Below the pieces are notes generated by a model. That model was not told where the DNA came from, searched no databases, and worked only from the letters and a program-made list of their open reading frames with translations. From NCBI GenBank assembly GCA_036337765.1, contig JAYZDP010000104.1, positions 3,764 to 67,763 on the forward strand: a DNA stretch of 64,000 bases, read 5' to 3'. Shown here piece after piece: positions 16,955 to 38,687 of the stretch. Position 1 is the first letter of the stretch, and every line of letters begins with the position of its first letter. The translations under genes were made by a program, and so were the position numbers. This DNA comes from Acidobacteriota bacterium (GTDB lineage Bacteria; Acidobacteriota; Thermoanaerobaculia; Multivoradales; Multivoraceae).

Positions 16955-17013
16955 GGTCGCATCCTAGCGACTCGCCGCGGACACCGCTCGCCGGGGTCAT
17001 CGTCTAGACCCCG

Positions 17014-24277: not shown

Positions 24278-26112
24278 GAGACGAGCGCGAGCAGACACCG
24301 ACAGACGAGGAGGAGTGGGTACCCGAGGACGACGCCGTCATCGGGCGTGCATTTCGCGGCTCGCTCGTGGCTCTGGTGGCGGTCGCGGTCCTGGTCGGCG
24401 CCTTGCTCGGACTGAATCGAGGCTGTAGCGAGGCTCCGGACGACCATGAGATCGAAGCTTTTGCCCCGGTCGCGGTAACGCGGGCTGCAGAAGCGCCGTC
24501 CGTGCCGTTTGCCGACGTGACCGCCGCGTCGGGCGTGGGCTTCGTCCATCACAACGGCGCCACCGGCGACAAGCTCCTGCCCGAAACCATGGGCGGTGGA
24601 GTGGCGATCGCCGACCTCGACGGCGACGGCGATCTGGATCTGTTCTTCGTCGACTCTTCGCCCTGGGAAGGCCGGCCGGGCCGGGCCGGGACTCCCGTTC
24701 TGTACGACAACGACGGCACCGGCAGTTTCCGCGACGTGAGCGCGCAGCGCGGCCTCGACGTCAGTCTCTACGGCACCGGCGTCGCGGCTGGTGACTTCGA
24801 CAACGACGGTGATGTCGACCTGTTCGTCGCGGCGGTGGGGGAGAACCTGCTACTGCGAAACGACGACGGAGCCTTTGTCGACGTGACCGCCGAGGCGGGC
24901 GTGGCTGGCGATCCGGGCGAGTGGTCGTCGTCCAGCGCGTTCGTCGACATCGATCGAGACGGCGATCTGGATCTGTTCGTTGGCAACTACGTGCGCTGGT
25001 CGAAGGAGATCGACCTCGAGCTCGACTACCGACTGACCGGGGTCGGCCGCGCCTACGGGCCGCCTGTGAACTACGGCGGTACCTTCCCATATCTCTACCG
25101 CAACGACGGCGACGGGCGCTTCACCGACGTATCGGCCTCGAGCGGTGTCCAGGTGCGCAACGTCGCCACCGGCGGCCCGGTCGCCAAGTCGCTCGGCGTC
25201 ACACCGGTCGACGTCGATCGCGACGGCTGGCTCGATCTCTTTGTCGCCAACGACACGGTGCGCAACTTCCTTCTACACAACCGCCAGGACGGGACGTTCG
25301 AAGATGTCGGCGACCGCTACGGCATCGCCTATGGCCGCGACGGCGCGGCGACCGGCGCGATGGGCGTCGATTGGGCCGACTTCCGCAACGACGGCGAGCT
25401 GGGGTTTCTGGTGGCGAACTTCGCCAACGAGATGAGCTCACTGTTCGTCACCCAGGGCGATCCGGAGCTCTACGCAGATGAGTCGATCATTGAGGGAATC
25501 GGCGCCCCGAGTAGGCGCATGCTCAGTTTTGGGGTCTTCTTCTTCGACTACGACCTCGACGGACGACTCGATGTGCTGCAGTCCAACGGCCATCTCGAAG
25601 AGGCCATCAACGTCGTCGATCCGAGCCAGGAGTACCACCAACCGCTGCAGCTGTTCTGGAATGCGGGCGACGCGGGCATGGTCGAGGTCGATGCCGACAA
25701 GATGGACGACCTCGCACAGCGCCTTGTCGGTCGGGCGACCGCCTATGGCGACCTCGACGGCGACGGCGACCTCGACGTCGTGGTGTGTCAGACCGCGGGC
25801 CCAGCGATCGTGTTTCGTAACGATCAGGCCGAGGGCCATCATTGGCTGCGGGTGAAGCTCGAGGGCAACGGTCGGTCCTCGAACCGCGACGCGATCGGCG
25901 CGGTCGTCGAGCTGACCGCCGGTGGAACCCTACAGCGCCGCGGCGTGACGCCGTCTCGCTCCTACCAGGCACAGGTCGAGCTACCGCTGACCTTCGGACT
26001 CGGCGACGCTGGCTCAGTCGAGGGACTCGTGGTGATCTGGCCCGACGGCTCGACCTCATCGCACGAGGTGGCTCAGGTCGATCGGGTGGTCGTGATCCGC
26101 CAAGAGAGCTGA
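24274..26112 (+). CDS. CRTAC1-family protein (FG-GAP/VCBS-type repeats plus ASPIC/UnbV C-terminal domain)
   Basis: Repeated Ca-binding-like DxDxDGDxD motifs (IADLDGDGDLDLFFV, FDNDGDVDLFVAA, VDIDRDGDLDLFVGNY, VDVDRDGWLDLFVAND, DYDLDGRLDVLQSNG, YGDLDGDGDLDVVVCQ). UnbV_ASPIC-like C-terminus. GTG start overlaps the preceding stop. Confidence 0.85.
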   Translation: MRDEREQTPTDEEEWVPEDDAVIGRAFRGSLVALVAVAVLVGALLGLNRGCSEAPDDHEIEAFAPVAVTRAAEAPSVPFADVTAASGVGFVHHNGATGDKLLPETMGGGVAIADLDGDGDLDLFFVDSSPWEGRPGRAGTPVLYDNDGTGSFRDVSAQRGLDVSLYGTGVAAGDFDNDGDVDLFVAAVGENLLLRNDDGAFVDVTAEAGVAGDPGEWSSSSAFVDIDRDGDLDLFVGNYVRWSKEIDLELDYRLTGVGRAYGPPVNYGGTFPYLYRNDGDGRFTDVSASSGVQVRNVATGGPVAKSLGVTPVDVDRDGWLDLFVANDTVRNFLLHNRQDGTFEDVGDRYGIAYGRDGAATGAMGVDWADFRNDGELGFLVANFANEMSSLFVTQGDPELYADESIIEGIGAPSRRMLSFGVFFFDYDLDGRLDVLQSNGHLEEAINVVDPSQEYHQPLQLFWNAGDAGMVEVDADKMDDLAQRLVGRATAYGDLDGDGDLDVVVCQTAGPAIVFRNDQAEGHHWLRVKLEGNGRSSNRDAIGAVVELTAGGTLQRRGVTPSRSYQAQVELPLTFGLGDAGSVEGLVVIWPDGSTSSHEVAQVDRVVVIRQES

Positions 26113-26914: not shown

Positions 26915-29488
26915 GTGATGCGCTTGCTCTCCTTCTCGTTGACGATCTTCGCCTTGGCGACACCGCTCGGCGGTGGCTCTCCCCTCGAACCACCTTCCAC
27001 GGGTGGCATCGTCGCCCTACACCGCGCCCTGGCGCGACTCGATGTGCACAAGCGGCTGCTGATCATCGGCGCACACCCCGACGATGAGGACACGAGCCTG
27101 CTCGCCCTGGTGAGTCGAGGGATGGGCGGTGAGGCAGCCTATCTCTCGCTGTCGCGCGGCGAGGGCGGCCAGAACCTCATCGGCACCGAGCTCGGCCGTG
27201 ACCTGGGTCTCGTCCGCAGCCAGGAGCTGCTTTCGGCGCGCGGCGTTGACGGTGGCCATCAGTTCTTCACCCGCGCCTTCGACTTCGGCTACACCCGCTC
27301 GCTCGACGAGACCGTCGGCCGGTGGCCTGAGGAAGTGCTGCTCGAAGACGCGGTGCGGGTGGTGCGGCGGTTCAAGCCGCAGATCATTGTGTCGGTGTTT
27401 CCCAACAGTGCGCGTGCGGGCCACGGCCAGCATCAGGCGGCCGGACTGACCGCGGAGCGAGTGTTCGAGGCGGCCGGCGATCCCGCGCAGTTCCCCGAGA
27501 TGGCCGCCGACGGCTTGGCGCCTTGGCAGCCCAGATCGTTTTACAGATCCGCCTTCTTCCGCCCTGTGCCAGGCAACCTGGTGCTCGAGACCGGAGGCAC
27601 CGACCCCGGCTCGGGTAAGACGTACTTCCAACTGGCGATGGCCTCTCGCAGCATGCATCGCTCCCAGGACATGGGGGTGTTGCAGGACACCGGGCCGCGC
27701 AGCACCCGCGTGGTACGCGAGTCGAGCGACAGCGACGATCCCGATCTCTTCGCCGGTGTGGACACCCACCTTGCGGCGATCGCCGACCTGATCGAGGACC
27801 GCGAGGACCGAGATGCGTCGCGGGCGCGGCTGCAGTCGGCGGCGGACCGCGTAGCGGCGTTGCGCCGGGAGGTCGATCCTGGGAATCTCGGGGTCGCGAC
27901 GGCGGCGCTCGGCGCACTCGTCTCGGATCTGAGAGCCGCGCACGCCCAAGCCGGCGCCGCCACCGTGGCTGGTCAGCTGCTGCGGGAGAAGGTGGAGATC
28001 GCGGAGGAGGCATGGACGATCGCGGCGGGTCTCGTTCTCGACGCGACCACCACCGACGATCGACTGGTCGCCGGTCGCCGCACGGAGATTCGCGTCGTCG
28101 TCTACAACAGCGGCAGCGCGGCGGTCGAGGTGGCCCCCGCACTCGACGTGCCGGCAGGCTGGTCCGATCCCGAAGGCCTGGATCCGCAGCAGGTGCCGGC
28201 CGGAGAGTCGAAGACCTGGACGGTCGAACTGTCGGTTCCGGCATCGGCCGAGCCCACCGTTCCGTACTTTCTGGCCGCGCCGCGCCAGGGCGACGTCTAC
28301 GATTGGTCGGGGGTGGCTGTCGACATCAAGGCAGAGCCCTTCGGGCCGCCGCCGCTGAGTGCGCGCTTTCGCCTGACCGCTGGCGGCTTGGAGCTGGAGC
28401 GGAGTCGCGAGGTCGTCCAGCGCTTTCGCGATCAGGCGGTCGGCGAGCGTCGGCGGCCGCTTCGCGTCGTGCCCGTGGTCGAGGTGGCGGTCGATCCCGC
28501 CCGCCTGGTCTGGCCCGTCGGGCAGGCCTCTCGCAGGACCGTTCGGGTAAGCCTCACCAAGAACGTCGGCGAGGCGCTGGATGGCACCATCGAGGTCAGC
28601 AGCCCGCTCGGCTGGCCCAGTGTCGCCGCCGTCGACTTCTCGCTGGAAGCGACTCGCGAGCGACGTACCTACGAGCTCGTCATCGAGCGCCCCGCCGACG
28701 ACAGCCAGGGCGGCGGCACCTTCGCCTTTGCCGCGGCCCTGTCCAGTGGGGTCGAGAGCCGCGCGGCCTATCCGTTGGTCGACTATCCTCACATCCGCGC
28801 CGTGCCGTGCCCTCGGCCCGCCCTCGCTGACATTCAGCTGCTCGATCTTGAGCTCCCCGGTGCCAAGCGCATCGCCTACATCCGGGGCGCTTCCGATCGG
28901 GTACCCGAGAGCCTGCTCGAGGTGGGTCTGCCGATCCAGCTCGTGACCTCGGACCAGCTCCTCGACATGGACGAGACGGAGCTGGCGAGCTTTGACTCCG
29001 TCGTCATCGGCTCGCGTGCCTACGAGACCGACTCCCGTCTCGCCGAAGCCAATCCCAGGCTACGCGAGTACGTCGCCCGAGGTGGGACCCTGCTGGTCCA
29101 GTACCAGCAGTACGCGTTCAGTCGCGGGGGCATGGCACTGCTACCGCTCAGTATCGCGCGGCCGCACGACCGGATCACCGACGAGACGGCGGCGATGAAC
29201 GTCATTGCTCCCGACCACGGTGCCTTCACCTCTCCGAATGCCATCGGCAAGGCCGACTGGCAGGGCTGGGTACAGGAGCGTGGCCTGTATTTCGCCAACG
29301 AGTGGGACGACAGCTACAAGAGCCTGCTGCGCATTTCCGACCCCGGCCGCGACCCGCAGGAGGGGGGTCTCCTGGTCGCACCGATCGGTGAGGGGACCTA
29401 CATCTACACTGGCCTGGCCTTCTTCCGCCAGCTCCCGGCGGGAGTCCCCGGCGCGTTCCGACTGTTCGCCAACCTGCTCAACCTCTAG
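26915..29488 (+). CDS. Large PIG-L/LmbE-family N-acetylglucosaminyl deacetylase with long C-terminal extension (Ig-like region and a GATase1/ThuA-like domain)
   Basis: LmbE/PIG-L motif LLIIGAHPDDEDTSLLALVS near the N-terminus, after a signal peptide MMRLLSFSLTIFALATPLGG. 857 aa. C-terminal segment ...GGTLLVQYQQYAF...LLVAPIGEGTYIYTGLAFFRQL resembles ThuA/DUF4159-type GATase1-like folds. Confidence 0.75.
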   Translation: MMRLLSFSLTIFALATPLGGGSPLEPPSTGGIVALHRALARLDVHKRLLIIGAHPDDEDTSLLALVSRGMGGEAAYLSLSRGEGGQNLIGTELGRDLGLVRSQELLSARGVDGGHQFFTRAFDFGYTRSLDETVGRWPEEVLLEDAVRVVRRFKPQIIVSVFPNSARAGHGQHQAAGLTAERVFEAAGDPAQFPEMAADGLAPWQPRSFYRSAFFRPVPGNLVLETGGTDPGSGKTYFQLAMASRSMHRSQDMGVLQDTGPRSTRVVRESSDSDDPDLFAGVDTHLAAIADLIEDREDRDASRARLQSAADRVAALRREVDPGNLGVATAALGALVSDLRAAHAQAGAATVAGQLLREKVEIAEEAWTIAAGLVLDATTTDDRLVAGRRTEIRVVVYNSGSAAVEVAPALDVPAGWSDPEGLDPQQVPAGESKTWTVELSVPASAEPTVPYFLAAPRQGDVYDWSGVAVDIKAEPFGPPPLSARFRLTAGGLELERSREVVQRFRDQAVGERRRPLRVVPVVEVAVDPARLVWPVGQASRRTVRVSLTKNVGEALDGTIEVSSPLGWPSVAAVDFSLEATRERRTYELVIERPADDSQGGGTFAFAAALSSGVESRAAYPLVDYPHIRAVPCPRPALADIQLLDLELPGAKRIAYIRGASDRVPESLLEVGLPIQLVTSDQLLDMDETELASFDSVVIGSRAYETDSRLAEANPRLREYVARGGTLLVQYQQYAFSRGGMALLPLSIARPHDRITDETAAMNVIAPDHGAFTSPNAIGKADWQGWVQERGLYFANEWDDSYKSLLRISDPGRDPQEGGLLVAPIGEGTYIYTGLAFFRQLPAGVPGAFRLFANLLNL

Positions 29489-29700
29489 CTCGCTGTCGAT
29501 GCCGAGCCGCTGGAGCGAGGAGACCGTGAGCAGGGTGCTGATTTTGGTGGTCGATTGTCTTCAACCGGCGGGGGGACCGAGCAGTCGTAGGCGGTCCTGT
29601 GACGCACTCTGGAGTCACACCGCCACGCATCCCTCGAACGGGATCATCCACGCCGGCGGTTCCGTTTGCGAGCTGTCTGTTCCCCTCGCGGCCGCCACGC

Positions 29701-32079
29701 TCATCCCCGGCGTCGTAGATGGACACCACGCTTGAGCGACAGCTCTCGCCCGGGCCTCCAGCCGCGCCGTCGGCCGTCGCGCAGGGCGCGGACTGCGGTC
29801 GAAAGGACCTGGGCGGCGCCTTCGAGAGCCGAGCCGCCAGGGGACTCTAAATAGCGGCGCAAGTGGCCCCAGCGGGATCGCGGGTCGGGGCGTGCTTCGA
29901 GCTCGGCGAGGACACTGACGCCCTCCCACTCGGGAAGCCGACGCCAGTGTCGGTAGAGGCGGACGGCGACACTGCGGTCGAGGGCCTCGTCGCGGCGCTG
30001 CGGGACGGCGGTCAACCAGGCAGGCTCGGCCGCCAGCCAGCCGAGAGGGCCGGCGAGCGCTCGGGTGACGAGCGCGAGCTCCTCGGCGACATCGCAGCGA
30101 TGGGCGCAGTCGGCCAGGCGGTCGGCGTCGATGAGGTCATCGCGCTCGAGGGCGAGGGCGAGGTCGAGGACGGCGCGCATCGTGACCGCGAGGTCGTGGT
30201 GCAGGAGGTGCCCGAGGGCGAGGATGAGCGCATGCTCGGGCGCCGGGGCTTCGAAGCGCACGCCGCCCGCCTGGCAGGAGGTGGCGTGGTCCCAGGTCTG
30301 CTCGAGCAACCATGGGCGCTCCGACAGCTCGTCCCAGAGATCGAAGTGGAGCTCGATCGAACGACCGGTCTCCGGGTCGTGGCGCTCGACGTGGTGGGGT
30401 GCCGTGCGGCCTCGCTCGGTGTAGCCGAGGGCCTCTAGCTCGCGTTCGAGCGCGCGGAGCTCCGCCGGGCGGCAGAGGAGGTCGAGGTCGACCATCGGAC
30501 GCAGACCGGGGGCACCGTAGAAGCGGGCGATGTCGGCCGGGCCCTTGAAAGCCAGTGGGCGCAACCCGAGTTCGCGGCAGCGCTCGAGGAGGCGGCCGAG
30601 GTCGTCGAGCCGGCGGCCGTTGTGGAGTGCCGTCAGGCAGGAGGCGCCGAACCAGTCGTCGCGCACCGCGGCGTCAACTTGGAAGGGCAGCCGGCCGTCG
30701 TGGGCGAGATGGCTGAGGACGGGCTGCAGCCGGTGCGCCGCCGCGAGGATGACCAGGCGGTCGAGGTCGTCGACCGGTCGGGGCGGTGGCTGGCCTCCGG
30801 TCGCCTTCGAGACGAACTCTCTGCAGGCCCGCTCGAGGAGGGCGATGCACGAGTCGACCGGCGTGGTTTCGAAACGGTCGGCGGCGAGGGGCGGCCGCGA
30901 CCCCGCGGCCTCGACCGCGAACCCCATGCCCTCGGCGAGGCGTCGGCAGACGCGGTCGCTAGCGTAGTCGGACGCCAGCTGGCCGCGCTTGGCGGCGGCG
31001 ATCCGGCGGGCCTCTCCGCGGTGCTCGAAGACCCAGCGCAGCAGCTCGCTCGCGTGGGCTCGGTCGGCTCGGGCCCAGTGCGGGGGACCCGAGGCGGTGC
31101 GGTACTCCTCGTCGGGAGCCTCGACCAGGTCGTAGCGCACCGCGAGCGGCCAGTCATCGCCGAGGTAGTCCTTCTGGCCTCCCCAACCGGTAAGGATCGC
31201 GGGATTGCCGAAGAGCAGCGCCTCGAAGGGGCAGATGCCCCAGCCCTCGCTGCGCGGCAGCCCGAAGAAGCAGTCGCCCCGTGTGTGCAGGCCGTCGATG
31301 GTGCGCGGCGAGACCTCCTCGGCTACGAGATGCACGCGCCCGCGGCCCGGGTACTCCGCCAGGATCTTCGCCACCTGCCACCAGGTCATCTGCTCGTGCG
31401 GCACGGCGCGGCCCACGCGGTCGCCCTCGAGGGCACCGGGCACGATCGAATCGGTCTTGACCACCAGCACTACACGCTCGTCGGCCCGGAAGGTCTCGAG
31501 GTAGGCCCGCAGGGTGTCGCTCATGGACTTGCGCGGGGTCCAGGTGGCGATGGTGTAGAAGACGAAGTCGTCGTTCTCGATCGCCCGCAGCGCGTCGGGC
31601 ACCGGAGCGCGCCGGACCTCCCGCGCGATGTGCGGCACGATCTCGATGGGTCGGGTGATGCCCTCCGACGCCAGCACCGAACGGTTGAACTCACTCGGCA
31701 CGAAGAGGCGCTCGAACCCATTCAGAACGTCGCACCAGCCGTCCGGAAGGCGATCCATCTCCCAGGCGACGTAGGCGTAGGGCGTCAGGTCGAGCGCCTT
31801 GCGCAACCAGTGGGCGTGGGCCCTCGGCGGAGGCACGTCGATCAGCAGGGTGTCGACGTCGAGAGGGCGGTGGTGGAGCCGCAGGACGCGTTCATCGATC
31901 GCCGGGTGCAGGCCCGGTAGCCGGTCGAGCGAGCTGGGCGTGTCGAGCCCCTTCGCGATCGGCCACCACGTCAGGGGGACCCCAAGCCGGTCGAGCCCTG
32001 CCGCGTAGAGCGTGGCGGCGTCGCCGTAGCCGGAGCCCGGCAGCTGGGTGACTAGCTGCAGTCCGCGGGGCGGCGTCAT
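29701..32079 (-). CDS. Fusion protein: GT4-family (GT-B) glycosyltransferase fused to a PF14907-type uncharacterised nucleotidyltransferase domain. The two halves are ordered N-terminal glycosyltransferase, C-terminal nucleotidyltransferase. Start set at ATG 32079 (MTPPRGLQLV), which overlaps the upstream gene stop as ATGA.
   Basis: Glycos_transf_1-like region FVPSEFNRSVL ... GDCFFGLPRSEGWGICPFEALLFGNPAILTGWGGQKDYL. C-terminal half has the NTP_transf_5 pattern: DRLVILAAAHRLQPVL ... LRPLAFKGPADIARFYGAPGLRPMVDLDLLCRPAELRALERELEALGY ... IELHFDLWD. Confidence 0.75.
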   Translation of the reverse strand: MTPPRGLQLVTQLPGSGYGDAATLYAAGLDRLGVPLTWWPIAKGLDTPSSLDRLPGLHPAIDERVLRLHHRPLDVDTLLIDVPPPRAHAHWLRKALDLTPYAYVAWEMDRLPDGWCDVLNGFERLFVPSEFNRSVLASEGITRPIEIVPHIAREVRRAPVPDALRAIENDDFVFYTIATWTPRKSMSDTLRAYLETFRADERVVLVVKTDSIVPGALEGDRVGRAVPHEQMTWWQVAKILAEYPGRGRVHLVAEEVSPRTIDGLHTRGDCFFGLPRSEGWGICPFEALLFGNPAILTGWGGQKDYLGDDWPLAVRYDLVEAPDEEYRTASGPPHWARADRAHASELLRWVFEHRGEARRIAAAKRGQLASDYASDRVCRRLAEGMGFAVEAAGSRPPLAADRFETTPVDSCIALLERACREFVSKATGGQPPPRPVDDLDRLVILAAAHRLQPVLSHLAHDGRLPFQVDAAVRDDWFGASCLTALHNGRRLDDLGRLLERCRELGLRPLAFKGPADIARFYGAPGLRPMVDLDLLCRPAELRALERELEALGYTERGRTAPHHVERHDPETGRSIELHFDLWDELSERPWLLEQTWDHATSCQAGGVRFEAPAPEHALILALGHLLHHDLAVTMRAVLDLALALERDDLIDADRLADCAHRCDVAEELALVTRALAGPLGWLAAEPAWLTAVPQRRDEALDRSVAVRLYRHWRRLPEWEGVSVLAELEARPDPRSRWGHLRRYLESPGGSALEGAAQVLSTAVRALRDGRRRGWRPGRELSLKRGVHLRRRG

Positions 32080-32948
32080 CGAGGCCCGGCCGCGAGCTCG
32101 TGCGGCGTCGGGACGAGGGGCTGCAGCAGGCGGGCGAGCCCACTCGACGAGCGGTGGATGCGCGTGACGGTGAGCTCCTCGGCGTGGTGGGTCGAGAAGT
32201 CGACTCGATCCTCTTCCCACCACATGTGCTGCCACAGGTGGAGCGAGGAGGCCTCGCCGGTGTCCAGCGGCTCTTCGGCGAAGAGCCGTGCGATCCCCTC
32301 CGGCGTCGAGCGCACCGGGAAGAACGTCGCCTCGGGCTCGACGTGGATCTCGTCGGGGAGCTCTTCGCTGAGCTGCTGCGCGAGGAAGCCCGAGTGGTTG
32401 CTCCAGCTGCCGTCGAGGGCACCCTCCATACGTTCACGCCAGGTGCGGGCGAAGAGCGAGCCGGGCTCGGCCATCAGCAGGGCGTTGCAGAGGGACGGCT
32501 TGACGTTGCCGGTGTGTTCGTCGACGACCGGCGGCTCTCGGCCGATGACGAAGCTCTCTTCCCACAGGTGCTCCGGTGGCGGCCGCAGGAAGATCGTGTC
32601 GATGTCGGCGTAGAGACCGCCGTGCTCGATCAGGGCGTCGAGTCGCACGAAGTCGGCCTGGTGGGCATAGCGGTAGGCTTCGGGGACGAGCCGGTCATCG
32701 TAGCGCGCGCGATCGATCTCGACCGGCCGCTCGACACGAACCAACTCCAGGTGCGGCCGGATCTCCTCCCACAGAGCGCCGAACGGCAGCGAATGGTAGT
32801 GCAGCACGATCTTCTCCGGCCGGACGACCTGGCGACACGACTCGATGGCCGCGTAGTGGAGCGGGTGAAAGGTGAGCCGCTGAGGGCGGAGTCCGAAGAC
32901 GAAGTGCGCGATGCGCGGGATCCCGGCCATGGGAGAGGGAAGTGACAT
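32076..32948 (-). CDS. GT32-like glycosyltransferase (Och1/DXD sugar-binding region family)
   Basis: N-terminal IPRIAHFVFG (compare IPKxIHQIW) and ADFVRLDALIEHGGLYADIDTIF (DXD-containing motif of Gly_transf_sug). Start ATG 32948 (alternative ATG 32930). Translationally coupled to the downstream GT-NTase gene. Confidence 0.65.
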   Translation of the reverse strand: MSLPSPMAGIPRIAHFVFGLRPQRLTFHPLHYAAIESCRQVVRPEKIVLHYHSLPFGALWEEIRPHLELVRVERPVEIDRARYDDRLVPEAYRYAHQADFVRLDALIEHGGLYADIDTIFLRPPPEHLWEESFVIGREPPVVDEHTGNVKPSLCNALLMAEPGSLFARTWRERMEGALDGSWSNHSGFLAQQLSEELPDEIHVEPEATFFPVRSTPEGIARLFAEEPLDTGEASSLHLWQHMWWEEDRVDFSTHHAEELTVTRIHRSSSGLARLLQPLVPTPHELAAGPR

Positions 32949-32974
32949 TAGCACGCGACCGCGGGCGGAGCCTG

Positions 32975-34234
32975 ATGCTCGCTCCGCTGGTGCCCGAGCC
33001 GACGGGCAACGGCTTGGCGATGCGGGCGGCGACGTCGCTCGAGGCCTTGGCGCGCCTCGGCGACGTGACACTGGTGGTCGTTCCGGCGGCCGATCCGGAG
33101 GCCGCCCGACGCGACGCTGGCTGGGCGCGCGAGCGGTGCGAGCGGTTGGTGCTCATGGCGCTGCCCTCCGGCCGGGAGGCCGCAGCCGCGTGGCTCGCCT
33201 CGCCCACGGGGCGTCGGATCGCGGCCGCCGCTGGGTCGTTGCCGTCGCTCGCGCGGGGGGTGCCGCCGGTTCTCGGCAGCCGGCTCGCTGCCGAGCTGGG
33301 ACGGGGCTTCGAGCGTATCTTCACGCTTCGGCTTTACCTGTCCGGCGTGGCCCTCGGCTGGCGCGACGCGGAAGCGGCGGGCGCTCCGCAGCTCGTGCTC
33401 GATCTCGACGAGGACGACGCTGCGACGCTCTCGGCAATCGCCCGGCTCGAAGCGGCACGTGGCGTGGGGGATCGCGCCCGGAAGACCCGGGAGGAGGCGG
33501 AGGCCTTCGGCCGCCTCGCGGGCGCTGCTCTACCGAACTTTGACCGTCTGCTGGCGTCGACCGTACTCGAGGCGCAGGGTCTGGCCGCGGCGACTGGCGG
33601 ACGGGAGATCGTCGTAGTGCCGAACGCGGTGCGACGGCCCGGGAACGGTGACAGCCCAGGGAGGCCGCCTGCATCAAGCGCAGGGTCGGCGGCTCCCCGA
33701 CTGCTGCTGGTCGGCAACTACTCCTACCTGCCGAATGTCGATGCAGCCGAACGCCTGGTGCGGGGCATCCTGCCGCGTCTTCGCGAGTCCCGTTCCGAGG
33801 CGGAGGCGCACCTGGTGGGCGGGGGCGGCGGCTCGGTGCTCGAGGCTCTGGCGAGGGAGGATGGAGCGGTCGTCCACGGCTGGGTCGACGACCTCCGGCC
33901 GCACTACGGCGCGGCGGCGGTGGTGGTGGTGCCGCTGCGGGCCGGCGGTGGCAGCCGCCTGAAGATCCTCGAGGCGGCGGCTCACGGCGTGCCGGTGGTC
34001 GCCACTCCGGTAGCCGCTCGGGGGCTCGAGGGGCTACGCGACGGCCGGGAGATCCGCCTGGCCGAGAGCGACGACGAGTTGGCTCTTGCGGTCCGGACGG
34101 TGCTCGACGATCCGGCGGCCGCCGCGGCGGTCGCGGAACGGGCTCGCGATCGGGTGCTTGCGGCGCACGCGGCCGACCGCGTCGCGGCCGATTTGGCGAC
34201 CCTCCTCGAGACTCCCTCGACCGGGCGCCGGTGA
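32975..34234 (+). CDS. GT4-family glycosyltransferase (group 1). Start ATG 32975 (MLAPLVPEP); the ORF could extend to GTG 32942.
   Basis: N-terminal MLAPLVPEPTGNGLAMRA (compare RIL.L.P..P..GG). C-terminal Glycos_transf_1 motifs GGGGGSVLEAL ... GGGSRLKILEAAAHGVPVVATPVAARGL. Confidence 0.8.
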   Translation: MLAPLVPEPTGNGLAMRAATSLEALARLGDVTLVVVPAADPEAARRDAGWARERCERLVLMALPSGREAAAAWLASPTGRRIAAAAGSLPSLARGVPPVLGSRLAAELGRGFERIFTLRLYLSGVALGWRDAEAAGAPQLVLDLDEDDAATLSAIARLEAARGVGDRARKTREEAEAFGRLAGAALPNFDRLLASTVLEAQGLAAATGGREIVVVPNAVRRPGNGDSPGRPPASSAGSAAPRLLLVGNYSYLPNVDAAERLVRGILPRLRESRSEAEAHLVGGGGGSVLEALAREDGAVVHGWVDDLRPHYGAAAVVVVPLRAGGGSRLKILEAAAHGVPVVATPVAARGLEGLRDGREIRLAESDDELALAVRTVLDDPAAAAAVAERARDRVLAAHAADRVAADLATLLETPSTGRR

Positions 34235-34249
34235 TACCGTGCGCGGATT

Positions 34250-34531
34250 GTGAGCGAGTCACCGAAGTACGAGCGGGCGCCGGGCCTGGAGTCGCACGAG
34301 GCCGATGATGGACTGGTGATCTTCGATCCCGCCGTCGACAAGATCCACCACATCAACTCCTCGGCCGGAGTGTTCTTCGAGCTCTGCGACGGCACCCGTG
34401 ACGCCGAGCGCATCGCCGAGGTCGCGACCGGCGTCTTCGGCCCGGACGAATTGCCGGAGGGCGCCGTCGCACAGGCGCTCGAGATGCTGGTGCGCGAGGG
34501 CATCGTACGGCAGGTCGACGGGGACTCTTGA
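34250..34531 (+). CDS. PqqD-family protein (RiPP recognition element, peptide chaperone)
   Basis: 93 aa. DGLVIFDPAVDKIHHINSSAGVFFELCDGTRDAERIAEVATGVFG...AVAQALEMLVREGIV matches the PqqD consensus along its whole length. GTG start 16 nt after the GT4 stop. Confidence 0.8.
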   Translation: MSESPKYERAPGLESHEADDGLVIFDPAVDKIHHINSSAGVFFELCDGTRDAERIAEVATGVFGPDELPEGAVAQALEMLVREGIVRQVDGDS

Positions 34532-35385
34532 TCTCCTTCCAACTGCTCGACACCCGGGTGGAGGTCGTGCGCGACGACCCGGTGATCGACGGCGGGCTGC
34601 GCTACCTGGCGCACGGCGCTTCGAGCGAGGTCGTCGTCCGGCGGACGATACGCTATGCCATCGAGGGCTCGGGGCCGTGGCTGCTGCGCGAGGAGGGCGA
34701 CGCTGTCGACGTCCTGGAAGATCCGGACGACTTGCTCTGGTTCCTCTTTGTGCGTGTACACGGTCGGGTGTGCGAGCGCTATTCGCTGGCGGGCTGGTCG
34801 ACCTTCCACGCCGCCGTCGCGGGCGTGCGAGGCGTGCGGCTGTTGTTCGTCGGACCGTCGAGCGTCGGCAAATCGACTCTCGCTTCGACGCTGCTCTTTG
34901 GGGGGCATTCGGTCGAGGGCGACGAGATGGCCTTCGAGCGCGCTGGCGTCGTGGTGCCGCTGGCGCGCCGCTTTCATCTCAAGGAAGGGATCGAGCGGCA
35001 CGTGTCGGGCCTGGCCCCCTGGATCGACGATCTGCCGGCGGTCAGGCGCGACGGCGCGCCGGTGCGGGCCTTCGACCCGAGCGAGCACGGCTTCGAGTGG
35101 AGGGTGAGGTCGGCGCCGGTCGACGCGGTCGTCTGTCTGCGCGCCGAGCACGGCGGAGAGAGCCGGCTTCGGGAGATAACGACCTTCGAAGCGCTGACGG
35201 GATTGCTGGGCGGTGCTCTGAACTGGGTCCAGTCGCGAAGCGTCCTGGTGGCGGCGGCGACGCGGCTGGCCAGGGCGCGGCGGGTCGAGCTCACCTTGGG
35301 ACGGCCCTCCGAGACCCTGGCGGCGCTCGAGTCCTGGTGCGGCTCGATCGACGGGAAGTTGCCGGACACGGACGGGATCGTCTAG
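34528..35385 (+). CDS. HPr-kinase-like (HprK C-terminal-domain-like) P-loop kinase, of the type found in phosphorylating lasso-peptide clusters
   Basis: Walker A GPSSVGKSTLASTLL in the context LLFVGPSSVGKST...GHSVEGDEMAF. About 285 aa. Start overlaps the PqqD stop (TTGA). Confidence 0.7.
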   Translation: MISFQLLDTRVEVVRDDPVIDGGLRYLAHGASSEVVVRRTIRYAIEGSGPWLLREEGDAVDVLEDPDDLLWFLFVRVHGRVCERYSLAGWSTFHAAVAGVRGVRLLFVGPSSVGKSTLASTLLFGGHSVEGDEMAFERAGVVVPLARRFHLKEGIERHVSGLAPWIDDLPAVRRDGAPVRAFDPSEHGFEWRVRSAPVDAVVCLRAEHGGESRLREITTFEALTGLLGGALNWVQSRSVLVAAATRLARARRVELTLGRPSETLAALESWCGSIDGKLPDTDGIV

Positions 35386-35415
35386 GATGCGCTCGTACAT
35401 CACGGGAGACCACCC

Positions 35416-35580
35416 ATGTCGAAGAGAGAAGAGGCCCTTGAAGAGTTCGACGAGTCGCGACGCGACTTCGTGCGCAAGGCCGGCGTGGCCGGTTTCGTGG
35501 CGCCGGTGGTGGCGTCGTTCACGATGTCCGGTCTGATGGCCCGCCCGGCCGCCGCGCAGGCACCGAACCAGTCGCCATAG
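35416..35580 (+). CDS. 54-aa peptide MSKREEALEEFDESRRDFVRKAGVAGFVAPVVASFTMSGLMARPAAAQAPNQSP. It resembles a twin-arginine (Tat) signal peptide with almost no mature domain, and is the candidate substrate (precursor) of the surrounding PqqD/HprK/NTase/GT cluster.
   Basis: ATG preceded by GGGAGA at -12. Located 30 nt after the kinase gene and 10 nt before the GT2-TPR gene, co-oriented. Contains SRRDFVRK (RRxFLK-like), a hydrophobic h-region and an AQA motif. Ends NQSP with a Ser at the penultimate position. Confidence 0.5.
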   Translation: MSKREEALEEFDESRRDFVRKAGVAGFVAPVVASFTMSGLMARPAAAQAPNQSP

Positions 35581-35589
35581 AGCCCGGCG

Positions 35590-36687
35590 GTGGTGCGCGT
35601 CACCGCTGCCCTCATTGTCCGCGACGAAGCGGAGCATCTGCGCGCTTGCCTACAGGCGGCCGGTCCGCTCGTTGACGAGATCGTCGTCGTCGACACCGGA
35701 TCGGATGACGACAGCCCGGCGGTCGCCGAGGCGGCTGGGGCGCACGTGATCTACGATGCGTGGCGGGACGACTTCGCTCGCCCTCGCAACCTCGGCCTCG
35801 AGGCCGCCACGGGCGACTGGATCCTCTACCTCGACGCCGACGAGAGGGTGGCGGCGGAGCCGGGGTGGCGACAGCGGCTTGAGGCGCCCGATGTCCTGGG
35901 GGCCCGGGTGGCGTTCCGCGCGGCCAGCCACCTGACCCCGTACACCGAGCTCCGCCTCTTCCGTAGCCGCCCGGACCTGCGCTTCCGCGGCGCCATCCAC
36001 GAGACGGTGGTCCCGGACGTCGAGGCAGTCGCGGCCCGCGAGGGCGTGCGGGTGGTCGACGCGCCCGAGGTCTTCGTGGAGCACCTCGGCTACGAGGGTG
36101 ATCGAACGCCCAAGTACCGGCGCGACCTGCCGATCCTGCGCCGGGCTGTCGAGGACGATCCCGATCGTCTCTTTCTCTGGCACGCCCTGGGCGAGGCGGC
36201 GCTCGGGCTGGGGCGGCGCGTCGAGGCGGAGCGGGCGTGGCGGCGCGGCGTCGAGGTTGCCCGGAGGGCCCCGGGGAATGCGATCGGTACCATGTTGTGG
36301 GTCGACCTCATCTCGATGCACTTTGCGTGGGAGACGATCGAGGACGTCGAAGCCCTGGTCGATGAGGCACTGGTCCGGTCCCCCGAGGACCCGGCGGTGC
36401 TCTGGTGGAGCGCACGCTGGTCCGCCGAGGCTGGCGATCCCGTTGGGGCGGAGCGGCGGCTGCGTGCCCTCCTCGAACGGGGAGAGCCGAAAGGGCCCGG
36501 CGCGGTCGGGGTCGACCGGCGGCTCTTCGGCGAGCTCGGCTGGGCCCTGCTGGGGTCGGTGCTGCTGGCCGAGGGGCGTGACGAAGAGGCGCTACGCTAC
36601 CTGAGGCTTGCGGCGGAGCGGCGCCCGGACGACGCCGAGCTGCGGGCGAAGCGAAGCCTCGCCGAGTCCCGCCTGACGTCGGCCTGA
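35590..36687 (+). CDS. GT2-family glycosyltransferase (SpsA-like) with C-terminal TPR repeats
   Basis: N-terminal ALIVRDEAEHLRACLQAAGPLVDEIVVVDTGSDDDS ... WILYLDADERV (GT2 DxD). C-terminal helical repeats (LGEAALGLGRRVEAERAWRRGVEVAR..., LAEGRDEEALRYLRLAAERRPDDAEL). Confidence 0.8.
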   Translation: MVRVTAALIVRDEAEHLRACLQAAGPLVDEIVVVDTGSDDDSPAVAEAAGAHVIYDAWRDDFARPRNLGLEAATGDWILYLDADERVAAEPGWRQRLEAPDVLGARVAFRAASHLTPYTELRLFRSRPDLRFRGAIHETVVPDVEAVAAREGVRVVDAPEVFVEHLGYEGDRTPKYRRDLPILRRAVEDDPDRLFLWHALGEAALGLGRRVEAERAWRRGVEVARRAPGNAIGTMLWVDLISMHFAWETIEDVEALVDEALVRSPEDPAVLWWSARWSAEAGDPVGAERRLRALLERGEPKGPGAVGVDRRLFGELGWALLGSVLLAEGRDEEALRYLRLAAERRPDDAELRAKRSLAESRLTSA

Positions 36688-36867
36688 GTGACCACCAGAT
36701 GGCGGTTCTCCGACCCGTCGGGCGACGCTCATCCCCAGTCCAAGCTGACTCTCAGGCGTCCCCTTCGCGGGTTCATACTGTGTGTCTCCGCGATAGACGT
36801 TGAAAGGCGCCGCCAGGGTCGGACCGCGGAAGTCCTTTCCTGACGAGGCCTTGTAGCTATCAAAGGT

Positions 36868-36944
<77 letters not shown>

Positions 36945-36984
36945 CCAAGGTTCGTTGGCCGCCCTTTCGGGCGAAGGGAGATAG

Positions 36985-38687
<1,703 letters not shown>

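What the first reader, a model, noticed from the sequence alone, without database searches (positions are those of the whole stretch)
29701..32079. Glycosyltransferase fused in one polypeptide to the PF14907-type nucleotidyltransferase
The about 790-aa protein joins a Glycos_transf_1-type catalytic domain (FVPSEFNRSVL ... EGWGICPFEALLFGNPAILTGWGG) to a full-length NTP_transf_5-like domain (AFKGPADIARFYGAPGLRPMVDLDLLCRP ... IELHFDLWD). In known systems the nucleotidyltransferase is a stand-alone enzyme that transfers a sugar-phosphate or nucleotide to a phosphorylated Ser. A fusion to a GT suggests sequential chemistry on one substrate. Translational coupling to the GT32 gene (overlapping ATGA) supports a tailoring sub-operon.
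Basis: partly seen in the sequence, partly recalled or inferred. Interest (0 to 1): 0.6.

Follow-up and report, generated by a model that had tools for sequence, protein, structure and literature searches.

The report
Glycosyltransferase–nucleotidyltransferase fusion in peptide-tailoring cassette
The 792-residue protein is a real end-to-end fusion of a sugar-transferring enzyme and a poorly understood nucleotidyltransferase that are separate neighbouring genes in related bacteria, and it sits in a conserved gene set that appears to phosphorylate and glycosylate a small 54-residue peptide.

Summary
Window 29701-32079 (- strand) is one 792-aa ORF. Residues 1-390 are a complete GT4-like glycosyltransferase. 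Residues 393-792 are a complete PF14907 nucleotidyltransferase (141.8 bits, cut-off 31.2). The ATG overlaps the stop of the upstream GT32 gene (ATGA).

The fusion is not an artefact. A second Thermoanaerobaculia genome (L006) has the same in-frame fusion, 53% identical across the junction. In other lineages the two halves are adjacent, translationally coupled genes, one gene apart, or placed elsewhere in the same cassette.

The fusion is rare. No other protein among 1.84 billion representatives matched both halves.

The gene belongs to a conserved 7-kb cassette with:
- a PqqD-type peptide-binding protein;
- an HPr-kinase-like P-loop kinase;
- GT32, GT4 and GT2-TPR glycosyltransferases;
- a conserved 54-aa peptide with a twin-arginine-signal-like leader, an FxxPxV motif and a Ser/Thr-rich tail.

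This resembles the kinase/nucleotidyltransferase tailoring of pseudomycoidin and the linear polyphosphorylated peptides (LPPs) reported in 2026.

The likely function is inferred, not shown: phosphorylation of the peptide tail, then sugar attachment and extension by the bifunctional enzyme. I rate it a new variant of a known kind, of moderate to high interest.

The parts
29701..32079 (-). 792-aa fused ORF: GT4-like glycosyltransferase followed by a PF14907 nucleotidyltransferase
   Evidence: ORF and translation. Pfam. Identical protein in NCBI named 'nucleotidyltransferase family protein', Acidobacteriota MAG. Orthologous fusion in L006.
30904..32079 (-). N-terminal domain, aa 1-392: complete GT-B, GT4-like glycosyltransferase. 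It carries an EX7E motif (E278 at nt 31246-31248, E286 at nt 31222-31224).
   Evidence: Stand-alone homologues of about 390 aa match aa 1-390 (P0007, E=1e-104). The family profile hits PDB 3oy2 at E=6e-11. 36 of 42 family members hit PF00534. Motif positions.
30880..30918 (-). Fusion junction, about aa 388-400 (...GMGFAVEAAGSRPP...). It corresponds to the stop/start overlap of the separate genes in other lineages.
   Evidence: In L004 the GT ends ...MGFAIPKP* and overlaps the nucleotidyltransferase ATG (ATGA). In L001 the genes abut as TGAGTG. I read the window DNA at the junction in all three frames by eye and saw no stop nearby. The first 12 residues of the C-half have low model confidence.
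29701..30903 (-). C-terminal domain, aa 393-792: full-length PF14907 nucleotidyltransferase. The Pfam match is nt 30061-30768. Conserved residues are G513, D531, D533, E576, H578 and D639.
32076..33071 (-). GT32-type glycosyltransferase (Gly_transf_sug, DXD). Its stop overlaps the start of the fusion ORF. The likely true start is at 32948 or 32930.
   Evidence: Pfam PF04488 E=1e-8. ATGA overlap. The gene is syntenic in L006, L007, L040 and L082-L084. It is fused to the GT-N domain in P0003, P0008 and P0103.
32942..34234 (+). GT4 glycosyltransferase (Glyco_trans_1_4), divergent from the GT32 gene
   Evidence: Pfam E=1.5e-23. Syntenic in L006, L007, L040, L081, L082 and L083.
34250..34531 (+). 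PqqD-family small protein (93 aa), a likely peptide-recognition element
   Evidence: Pfam PqqD 26.4 bits, cut-off 23.4. 40-47% identical to PqqD genes in L040 and L006.
34528..35385 (+). HPr-kinase-like P-loop kinase (285 aa; GPSSVGKST). Its start overlaps the PqqD stop (TTGA).
   Evidence: TIGR04352 HprK_rel_A E=8e-6 over aa 15-248 and Hpr_kinase_C E=8e-4, both below cut-off. 50% identical to the L006 orthologue. Orthologues on record hit ScmC and Hpr_kinase_C.
35416..35580 (+). Conserved 54-aa peptide gene, the candidate substrate or precursor: MSKREEALEEFDESRRDFVRKAGVAGFVAPVVASFTMSGLMARPAAAQAPNQSP
   Evidence: Homologues occupy the same position in L006, L007, L040, L082 and L083; L081 has the same leader on a 165-aa protein elsewhere in its cassette, and in L040 only the PqqD neighbourhood is visible. 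Synonymous changes exceed non-synonymous ones. GGAG lies upstream. Weak TAT-signal similarity.
35590..36687 (+). GT2 glycosyltransferase with a C-terminal TPR domain
   Evidence: Pfam Glycos_transf_2 E=5.8e-15 plus TPR. Partial similarity to SunS-type peptide glycosyltransferases, E=3.6e-13, far below cut-off. Syntenic in L006, L007, L081, L082 and L083.

Best explanation
The ORF is a genuine bifunctional enzyme. It arose by in-frame fusion of two genes that are normally separate members of one conserved cassette: a GT4-like retaining-type glycosyltransferase ('GT-N') and a PF14907 Pol-beta-fold nucleotidyltransferase.

The cassette also encodes a 54-aa peptide, a PqqD-type recognition protein, an HPr-kinase-like kinase and three further glycosyltransferases (GT32, GT4, GT2-TPR). 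The peptide has a twin-arginine-signal-like leader containing FxxPxV and a short Ser/Thr/Asn-rich tail after a conserved AAQ.

Proposed mechanism, inferred by analogy with pseudomycoidin (PsmK/PsmN) and with the linear polyphosphorylated peptides (LPPs) of Bacillota:
1. PqqD binds the leader.
2. The kinase phosphorylates a Ser or Thr in the tail.
3. The nucleotidyltransferase domain acts on that phosphate. It either attaches the first sugar through a phosphodiester or activates the phosphate by nucleotidylation.
4. The fused GT domain and the other glycosyltransferases add or extend the glycan.
The product would be a phospho-glycosylated peptide, or a small protein in some relatives.

Shown: the domain identities, the fusion, its recurrence, the conserved cassette and the conserved peptide. 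Inferred: the substrate, the order of steps and the chemistry of the nucleotidyltransferase domain.
For: Domains:
- PF14907 scores 141.8 bits.
- The C-half aligns end to end with stand-alone PF14907 proteins.
- G, DxD, H and D are invariant in 31 sequences.
- The GT half matches about 390-aa stand-alone GTs at E down to 1e-104 and solved GT4 enzymes.

The fusion is real and maintained:
- L006 has an 825-aa orthologue, 53% identical over 754 aa spanning the junction.

The gene pair is conserved:
- The nucleotidyltransferase gene lies directly downstream of a GT-N orthologue in L001-L005 and L041, with ATGA or TGAGTG junctions in L004 and L001.

The cassette is conserved:
- Full synteny in L006 and L007 and in L082 and L083.
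- In a census of 75 PF14907 loci, 44 have an HprK-like kinase, 44 a PqqD protein and 35 both.

The peptide is conserved:
- Seven homologues share invariant RR.F...AP.V..F, with more synonymous than non-synonymous codon differences.
- In L081 the same leader precedes a 110-aa domain.

Precedents:
- PsmN is required for hexose addition on phospho-Ser, and its DxD mutant is inactive (PMC6993621).
- The LPP core set is RRE + HprK-like kinase + NTP transferase in GT-rich loci. The LPP authors speculate that LppN needs an unidentified partner (PMC13381572).
Against: - There is no experimental evidence for any step.
- The kinase assignment rests on sub-threshold matches.
- The cassette lacks the SpI-type leader peptidase and MsbA-type exporter that define LPP clusters, and I saw no lasso cyclase or protease.
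- The position of the nucleotidyltransferase in the cassette varies. It is next to GT2-TPR in L082, distal in L083 and absent from L081. GT-N is therefore not an obligatory partner.
- The closest structural relatives transfer NMP to hydroxyl groups, not sugars, so the actual reaction could be nucleotidylation.
- I did not test directly whether PsmN and LppN belong to PF14907.
Confidence: 0.55

Rival explanations
1. Donor-supply model. The nucleotidyltransferase domain does not touch the peptide. It makes an activated donor, such as an NDP-sugar from a sugar-1-phosphate and an NTP, which the fused glycosyltransferase uses at once. The fusion would then serve substrate channelling.
For: The PsmN authors state this as an alternative: an enzyme producing a substrate used by a host glycosyltransferase. 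The LPP authors suggest a partner that produces a rare substrate. The fold relatives use NTPs. A fusion of a donor-making enzyme to a donor-using enzyme is a common arrangement (my own knowledge).
Against: PF14907 genes track kinase and PqqD genes (35 of 75 loci have both) rather than sugar-activation genes. In L081 the kinase-like protein lacks a recognisable P-loop (my reading of the translation) and no PF14907 gene lies within 8 kb. That fits a dependence on phosphorylation, but it is a single case. Known sugar-1-phosphate nucleotidylyltransferases have a different fold (my own knowledge).
Confidence: 0.2
2. Independent decoration. The nucleotidyltransferase domain adds a nucleotide (AMP, UMP or similar) to a hydroxyl of the peptide or its glycan as a final or regulatory modification. 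It would be mechanistically unrelated to the fused GT beyond sharing a substrate.
For: The best structural matches are O-nucleotidylyltransferases and MenT-type enzymes: ANT(2''), LnuA, MenT1. The catalytic G...DxD...E/H set is intact.
Against: The only genetic datum for this enzyme type is a +162 Da (hexose) product, not a nucleotide adduct. This model gives no reason for GT-N and the nucleotidyltransferase to be adjacent, coupled or fused.
Confidence: 0.15
3. Ordinary cell-envelope polysaccharide locus. The glycosyltransferases build an exopolysaccharide or lipopolysaccharide side chain. The nucleotidyltransferase acts like LicD or fukutin-type enzymes, adding a phospho-substituent to the glycan. 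The small peptide, PqqD and kinase would be unrelated or regulatory.
Against: The syntenic cassette has no initiating phosphoglycosyltransferase, flippase, polymerase or exporter. The peptide, PqqD and kinase are conserved in the same order across seven loci. FKRP is a much weaker match than the ANT and MenT enzymes.
Confidence: 0.08
4. Assembly or sequencing artefact. Two adjacent genes were merged by an indel or a lost stop codon in a metagenome-assembled genome.
For: The source is a MAG. No second fused protein appears among 1.84 billion representatives. L006 appears to carry a frameshift in its GT32 gene (two tblastn segments in different frames), so that assembly has indel errors or pseudogenes.
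Against: Two independent assemblies of different species carry the same in-frame fusion with a homologous junction. In unfused relatives the two genes are in different frames (ATGA overlap in L004), so a single error would not give a clean fusion. I saw no stop in any frame near the junction when reading the DNA.
Confidence: 0.02

Closest known systems
Linear polyphosphorylated peptide (LPP) clusters of Bacillota (LppA/K/B/S/D/N; PMC13381572, 2026)
   Same: Both have a discrete PqqD-type recognition protein, an HprK-like kinase and an uncharacterised NTP transferase, with no lasso cyclase. Both sit in glycosyltransferase-rich surroundings. Precursors have a conserved N-terminal leader and a variable C-terminus (35-200 aa in LPP; 50-165 aa here). 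The LPP leader has a YxxPxV-type motif; here it is [F/Y]xAPxV. In LPP the phosphorylated Ser is at position 3 of a core starting AQS; here the tail begins AQA, AQS, AQP, AQT or AQG.
   Different: The phylum differs (Acidobacteriota). The cassette has no SpI-type peptidase and no MsbA-type exporter. The leader looks like a twin-arginine signal. Four glycosyltransferase genes are fixed parts of the cassette. The NTP transferase is fused to, or coupled with, one of them. I compared LppN, LppK and LppB with this locus only through the published description, not by sequence.
Paeninodin/pseudomycoidin-type lasso peptide tailoring (PadeK/PsmK kinase, PsmN nucleotidyltransferase; PMC6993621, PMC8498205)
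   Different: I saw no lasso cyclase, B1/B2 protease or ABC exporter among the window ORFs scanned. PsmN is stand-alone or, in some clusters, fused to B2, not to a glycosyltransferase. No dedicated glycosyltransferases are reported in the psm cluster.
Pfam PF14907 (NTP_transf_5, 'uncharacterised nucleotidyltransferase')
   Same: Strong full-length match, conserved G...DxD...H...D residues and a Pol-beta-type fold.
   Different: It is fused to an N-terminal glycosyltransferase. This architecture was seen in only two genomes here. No member of the family has a solved structure or a defined reaction.
GT4-family retaining glycosyltransferases (Pfam Glycos_transf_1 / GT4-conflict; e.g. PBCV-1 B736L, PDB 3oy2)
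   Same: About 390 aa, with an EX7E motif. The family profile matches solved GT4 enzymes.
   Different: It is a divergent subfamily; this protein alone is below the Pfam cut-off. The subfamily often occurs in multi-GT fusions (with GT32, GT2, an FkbM methyltransferase, and giant proteins up to 4106 aa). Donor and acceptor are unknown.
NCBIfam 'HPr-rel-A system' models (TIGR04352 HprK-related kinase A, TIGR04353 PqqD family chaperone)
   Same: These are the best NCBIfam matches for the kinase and the PqqD protein of this cassette.
   Different: Scores are far below the cut-offs (25 against 200 bits; 21 against 35 bits). The cassette is at most a distant relative. That system has no described function in the papers searched.

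Membership tests
Pfam PF14907 NTP_transf_5 | Match to the family HMM above the gathering score | tested here: met
   141.8 bits against 31.2, E=3.7e-41, profile positions 4-242 of 249.
Pfam PF14907 NTP_transf_5 | Pol-beta-type nucleotidyltransferase fold with a glycine motif and DxD carboxylates | tested here: met
Pfam PF14907 NTP_transf_5 | Full-length colinearity with stand-alone members (not a fragment) | tested here: met
   Aligns from the first to the last residues of P0115 (418 aa) and P0139 (396 aa).
GT4-like GT-B glycosyltransferase (Glycos_transf_1) | Match to the Pfam HMM above the gathering score | tested here: not met
   18.7-20.2 bits against 26.4 for this protein. At E<=1e-3, 36 of 42 family members hit PF00534, and the closest homologue P0007 passes the cut-off at 28.6 bits.
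GT4-like GT-B glycosyltransferase (Glycos_transf_1) | Profile-level homology to solved GT4 enzymes | tested here: met
   Family profile against PDB: 3oy2 E=6.2e-11, TreT 4.9e-5, and others.
GT4-like GT-B glycosyltransferase (Glycos_transf_1) | EX7E motif in the C-terminal lobe | tested here: met
   E278-G-W-G-I-C-P-F-E286. E278 is invariant in 42 sequences.
GT4-like GT-B glycosyltransferase (Glycos_transf_1) | Two Rossmann-like lobes (GT-B fold) | tested here: inconclusive
   The single-sequence AF2 model of the whole protein failed (pLDDT 35.5). The fold is inferred only from length and colinearity with 3oy2.
LPP-type (linear phosphorylated peptide) RiPP cluster | Discrete PqqD-type recognition element | tested here: met
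   ORF 34250-34531, Pfam PqqD 26.4 bits against 23.4.
LPP-type (linear phosphorylated peptide) RiPP cluster | HprK-like kinase | tested here: inconclusive
   ORF 34528-35385 has a Walker A motif. It matches TIGR04352 at E=8e-6 and Hpr_kinase_C at E=8e-4, both below cut-off. Orthologues carry ScmC and Hpr_kinase_C hits.
LPP-type (linear phosphorylated peptide) RiPP cluster | NTP transferase (LppN/PsmN type) | tested here: inconclusive
   A PF14907 domain is present. I could not retrieve the LppN and PsmN sequences, so their membership of PF14907 was not checked.
LPP-type (linear phosphorylated peptide) RiPP cluster | Precursor with a conserved leader carrying a [Y/W]xxPx[LVIAFY]-like motif | tested here: inconclusive
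   The conserved 54-aa peptide has FVAPVV. Homologues in L081 and L083 have YxAPxV. F replaces Y/W in most of them, and binding was not tested.
LPP-type (linear phosphorylated peptide) RiPP cluster | SpI-type leader peptidase and MsbA-type exporter in the core cluster | tested here: not met
   Neither is in the syntenic cassette here or in L006, L007, L082 or L083. Neither was found among the window ORFs scanned.
Lasso peptide cluster | Macrolactam synthetase (C) and leader protease (B/B2) | tested here: not met
   No such domains in the cassette or in the other window ORFs scanned.

The most novel reading that the evidence does not exclude
The cassette makes a previously undescribed class of ribosomal product. 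A peptide that is little more than a twin-arginine-type signal sequence plus a 6-12-residue Ser/Thr-rich tail (or, in relatives, a small secreted domain) is phosphorylated. It is then given an oligosaccharide through a phosphodiester. The GT-nucleotidyltransferase fusion would be the bifunctional enzyme that creates and extends that linkage. This would assign the first defined reaction and partner to the PF14907 family (PsmN/LppN).
Probability: 0.3. Interest if true: 0.8.

Novelty: new variant of a known kind. Interest (0 to 1): 0.62.

Why it matters
PF14907 nucleotidyltransferases recur next to HPr-kinase-like kinases and PqqD proteins in lasso-peptide and LPP clusters. Their reaction is unknown.
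- PsmN is genetically needed for hexose addition to phospho-Ser.
- Deleting LppN had no effect, and its discoverers proposed an unidentified partner (PMC13381572).

A natural fusion, backed by a conserved coupled gene pair, points to a specific GT4-like glycosyltransferase as that partner. It offers a single polypeptide in which both activities and their substrate, a defined 54-aa peptide, can be tested together.

It also extends this tailoring logic from Bacillota to Acidobacteriota. There it appears in a compact seven-gene cassette with an unusual signal-peptide-like precursor.

Tried and rejected
- Single-sequence AF2 of the whole protein gave pLDDT 35.5 and was unusable.
- A full-length alignment mixing GT-only and nucleotidyltransferase-only rows placed the nucleotidyltransferases on the GT half. 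I therefore modelled only the C-half.
- A word-indexed homology search with the C-half found nothing, not even the protein itself. With a 31-sequence profile it found only 10 hits.
- A metagenome scan with the single protein found no relatives.
- The nucleotidyltransferase profile has no sequence-level match in the PDB.
- NCBIfam has no model for either half.
- The PIG-L/NPCBM_assoc gene downstream (26915-29488) is not part of the cassette. It has no counterpart in L004 or L006.
- I first scanned frames 34398-35441(+) and 33982-35637(-) and found nothing. The real genes are in another frame (34250-34531 and 34528-35385).
- The promoter and terminator scan of 29300-37100 gave nothing useful.
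- Long stop-to-stop frames around the nucleotidyltransferases of L059 and L062 gave no PDB matches and were not pursued.
- The L007 264-aa gene between the GT and the nucleotidyltransferase has no Pfam or NCBIfam match.
Full report
**1. The observation**

The - strand of the window carries an ORF ending at 29701. Read from the ATG at 32079 it is 792 aa. That ATG overlaps the TGA of the upstream gene 32076-33071 in the sequence cgATGAcg. Orthologues begin at the same place.

Pfam gives NTP_transf_5 (PF14907) at 141.8 bits against a cut-off of 31.2. The match covers aa 438-673 and almost the whole profile. Glycos_transf_1 scores only 18.7 bits, below its cut-off of 26.4. NCBIfam has no model for either half. 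The identical protein is in NCBI as 'nucleotidyltransferase family protein' from an Acidobacteriota MAG.

**2. The two halves**

An exhaustive search of 1.84 billion representative proteins returned two kinds of hit besides the protein itself.
- Stand-alone proteins of about 390 aa match aa 1-390 (best P0007, E=1e-104, 49% identity).
- Stand-alone PF14907 proteins of about 400 aa match aa 416-754 (P0115, P0139).

No other protein among the 150 listed matched both halves. Such a protein would have outscored every listed hit.

The N-half family is GT4-like.
- 36 of 42 members hit PF00534 and 28 of 42 hit PF20706.
- Its profile hits solved GT4/GT-B enzymes: PDB 3oy2 at E=6e-11, TreT and others.
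- The EX7E motif (E278...E286) is intact, and E278 is invariant.

This GT family is prone to fusions. Partners include GT32, GT2, an FkbM methyltransferase, and giant multi-GT proteins.

The C-half aligns from its first to its last residues with stand-alone PF14907 proteins. G513, R527, M529, D531, D533 and D639 are invariant in 31 sequences, and H578 is invariant in the 11- and 12-sequence alignments. The family has no sequence-level relative in the PDB.

**3. Is the fusion real?**

The contigs that carry the closest stand-alone nucleotidyltransferases (L001-L005, L041) have an orthologue of the N-half GT immediately upstream, 42-49% identical. In L004 the genes overlap as ATGA. In L001 they abut as TGAGTG.

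A scan of species-representative genomes found L006, a Thermoanaerobaculia MAG chromosome (OY761158.1). It has an 825-aa ORF with the same fusion, 53% identical over 754 aa and alignable across the junction.

In L007 (Ca. Multivoradales) the two genes are separated by one extra 264-aa gene.

Two independent assemblies of diverged species share an in-frame junction. In unfused relatives the genes are in different frames. An artefact is therefore very unlikely. The fusion probably arose once and has been maintained.

**4. The context**

The window, L006 and L007 share the same gene set. On one strand lie GT32 and then GT-N with the nucleotidyltransferase. Diverging from them lie GT4, a small ORF, a 285-aa ORF, a 54-aa ORF and GT2-TPR.
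- The small ORF (34250-34531) is a PqqD-family protein, 26.4 bits against a cut-off of 23.4.
- The next ORF (34528-35385, overlapping as TTGA) has a Walker A motif. It matches HprK-related kinase A and Hpr_kinase_C weakly. Orthologues on record carry ScmC and Hpr_kinase_C hits.
- The 54-aa ORF (35416-35580) is conserved in L006, L007, L040, L082 and L083. In L081 its leader forms the N-terminus of a 165-aa protein.

The peptide alignment gives the consensus DESRRDFxRKAxxAGFVAPVVASFTMxGLMxRPAAAQ, followed by a Ser/Thr/Asn-rich tail of 6-12 residues. Invariant positions are R15, R16, F18, A29, P30, V32 and F35. Codon differences are mostly synonymous: 14 synonymous against 12 non-synonymous over 48 codons versus L006, and 12 against 5 over 32 codons versus L007. 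A GGAG lies upstream in the window and in L006, and an AGGAGG in L007. The peptide resembles a twin-arginine signal only weakly.

I built profiles iteratively and applied them to 75 non-redundant PF14907 loci. 44 have an HprK-like kinase, 44 have a PqqD protein and 35 have both. Many of these contigs are short.

The closest stand-alone GT-N homologues sit in the same cassette, but the nucleotidyltransferase moves around:
- fused to GT-N in the window and L006;
- adjacent to GT-N in L001, L004 and L041;
- one gene away in L007;
- coupled to GT2-TPR in L082;
- distal in L083;
- absent in L081, where I also saw no P-loop in the kinase-like protein (my reading of the translation).

The cassette is richer in G+C (71.5%) than its flanks (67%). 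It lies among housekeeping genes: enolase, mfd and the dcw cluster.

**5. Comparison with known systems**

In the pseudomycoidin cluster the HPr-kinase homologue PsmK phosphorylates the C-terminal Ser. The nucleotidyltransferase-like PsmN is required for adding one or two hexoses to the phosphorylated peptide. A DxD mutant is inactive, and PsmN was modelled on ANT(2''). The authors could not say whether PsmN is itself a new kind of glycosyltransferase or makes a substrate for a host enzyme (PMC6993621).

Some lasso clusters fuse this nucleotidyltransferase to the B2 protease (PMC8498205).

In 2026 a non-lasso family, the linear polyphosphorylated peptides (LPPs), was described in Bacillota.
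- The clusters are embedded in glycosyltransferase-rich loci.
- The leader motif is YxxPxVLxHQxIxFETxxS.
- Ser3 of a core beginning AQSNWK is phosphorylated.
- Deleting lppN had no effect, and the authors speculated that LppN needs a partner encoded elsewhere (PMC13381572).

The present cassette shares the RRE, kinase and nucleotidyltransferase logic. It also shares a [F/Y]xAPxV leader motif and an AQ[S/A/P/T/G] start of the tail. It lacks the peptidase, the exporter and any lasso genes. It adds four fixed glycosyltransferase genes and a signal-like leader. It is a relative in logic, not a demonstrated member.

**6. Mechanism**

My preferred reading has four steps.
1. PqqD binds the leader.
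2. The kinase phosphorylates a tail Ser or Thr.
3. The nucleotidyltransferase domain acts at that phosphate, by sugar attachment or nucleotidyl activation.
4. The fused GT and the other GTs add or extend the glycan.

The fusion and the coupled gene pair argue that the GT and the nucleotidyltransferase act in consecutive or interdependent steps. None of the chemistry is shown.

The rivals are donor supply by the nucleotidyltransferase to the GT, independent nucleotidylation, a conventional polysaccharide locus, and an artefact. Each is listed with its evidence and refutation test.

**7. Verdict**

The fusion is rare: two genomes here, and none among the best hits in 1.84 billion representatives. 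The system it belongs to is a variant of a recently recognised kind.

Its value is as a natural pointer to the missing partner and substrate of PF14907 enzymes.

Noticed in passing
window 35416-35580 (+): A conserved 54-aa ORF lies between the kinase-like gene and GT2-TPR. It has a twin-arginine-signal-like leader, an FVAPVV motif and a tail ending AAAQAPNQSP. Its status as a previously called gene was not checked. It is the likely substrate of the whole cassette.
   Followed up: yes
window 34250-35385 (+): A PqqD-family gene (34250-34531) and an HPr-kinase-like P-loop gene (34528-35385) overlap by TTGA. They are easy to miss because longer ORFs in other frames cover the same DNA.
   Followed up: yes
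window 32930-32948: The divergent GT32 (-) and GT4 (+) genes appear to start within a few bases of each other, or even to overlap at their 5' ends. That leaves no intergenic promoter region. True starts were not determined.
   Followed up: no
window 29701-36687: The cassette has 71.5% G+C against about 67% in 20 kb on either side. It interrupts housekeeping genes, which is compatible with horizontal acquisition.
   Followed up: partly
L006 7852-8768: The GT32 orthologue in the Thermoanaerobaculia chromosome OY761158.1 matches in two frames. This is an apparent frameshift: either a pseudogene or a long-read indel error.
   Followed up: no
L007 9119-13150: In Ca. Multivoradales an extra 264-aa gene with no family match sits between GT-N and the nucleotidyltransferase. 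A bifunctional ATP-sulfurylase/APS-kinase gene follows the nucleotidyltransferase, hinting at sulfation in that variant.
   Followed up: partly
L081 3553-12122: This cassette variant has no PF14907 gene within 8 kb. I saw no Walker A motif in its kinase-like protein. Its substrate homologue is a 165-aa protein with the same leader plus a CLIPPER/DUF11-type domain. This may be co-loss of kinase activity and the nucleotidyltransferase.
   Followed up: partly
L025 9755-12133; L033; L013 4494-6287; L014 1028-2725; P0162: Other PF14907 fusions were found: to an MFS transporter (Terriglobia, 792-795 aa), to a Peptidase_S24-type domain, to a polysaccharide deacetylase and to a PF00912 transglycosylase.
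   Followed up: partly
L024 1560-2090; L032 8690-8878; L045 1860-2090; L052 3918-4244; L054 3811-4224; L078: Small ORFs with an RRxFLK-type motif and a hydrophobic AAPV-like segment lie next to PqqD/kinase/nucleotidyltransferase genes in distant phyla (Planctomycetaceae, Caulobacteraceae and others). One has a Cys-rich tail. This suggests a broad class of signal-like precursors.
   Followed up: partly
L082-L084: Several cassettes carry two tandem GT-N paralogues after GT32. The window has one, fused to the nucleotidyltransferase.
   Followed up: no
window 14612-16963 (-): A family-B DNA polymerase gene (DNA_pol_B plus the exonuclease domain) lies in the chromosomal flank.
   Followed up: no
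window 21482-26112 (+): A 931-aa protein with a cytochrome c554-like domain and TPR repeats is followed by an FG-GAP/ASPIC-UnbV protein, upstream of the PIG-L/NPCBM_assoc gene. These are not syntenic with the cassette.
   Followed up: no
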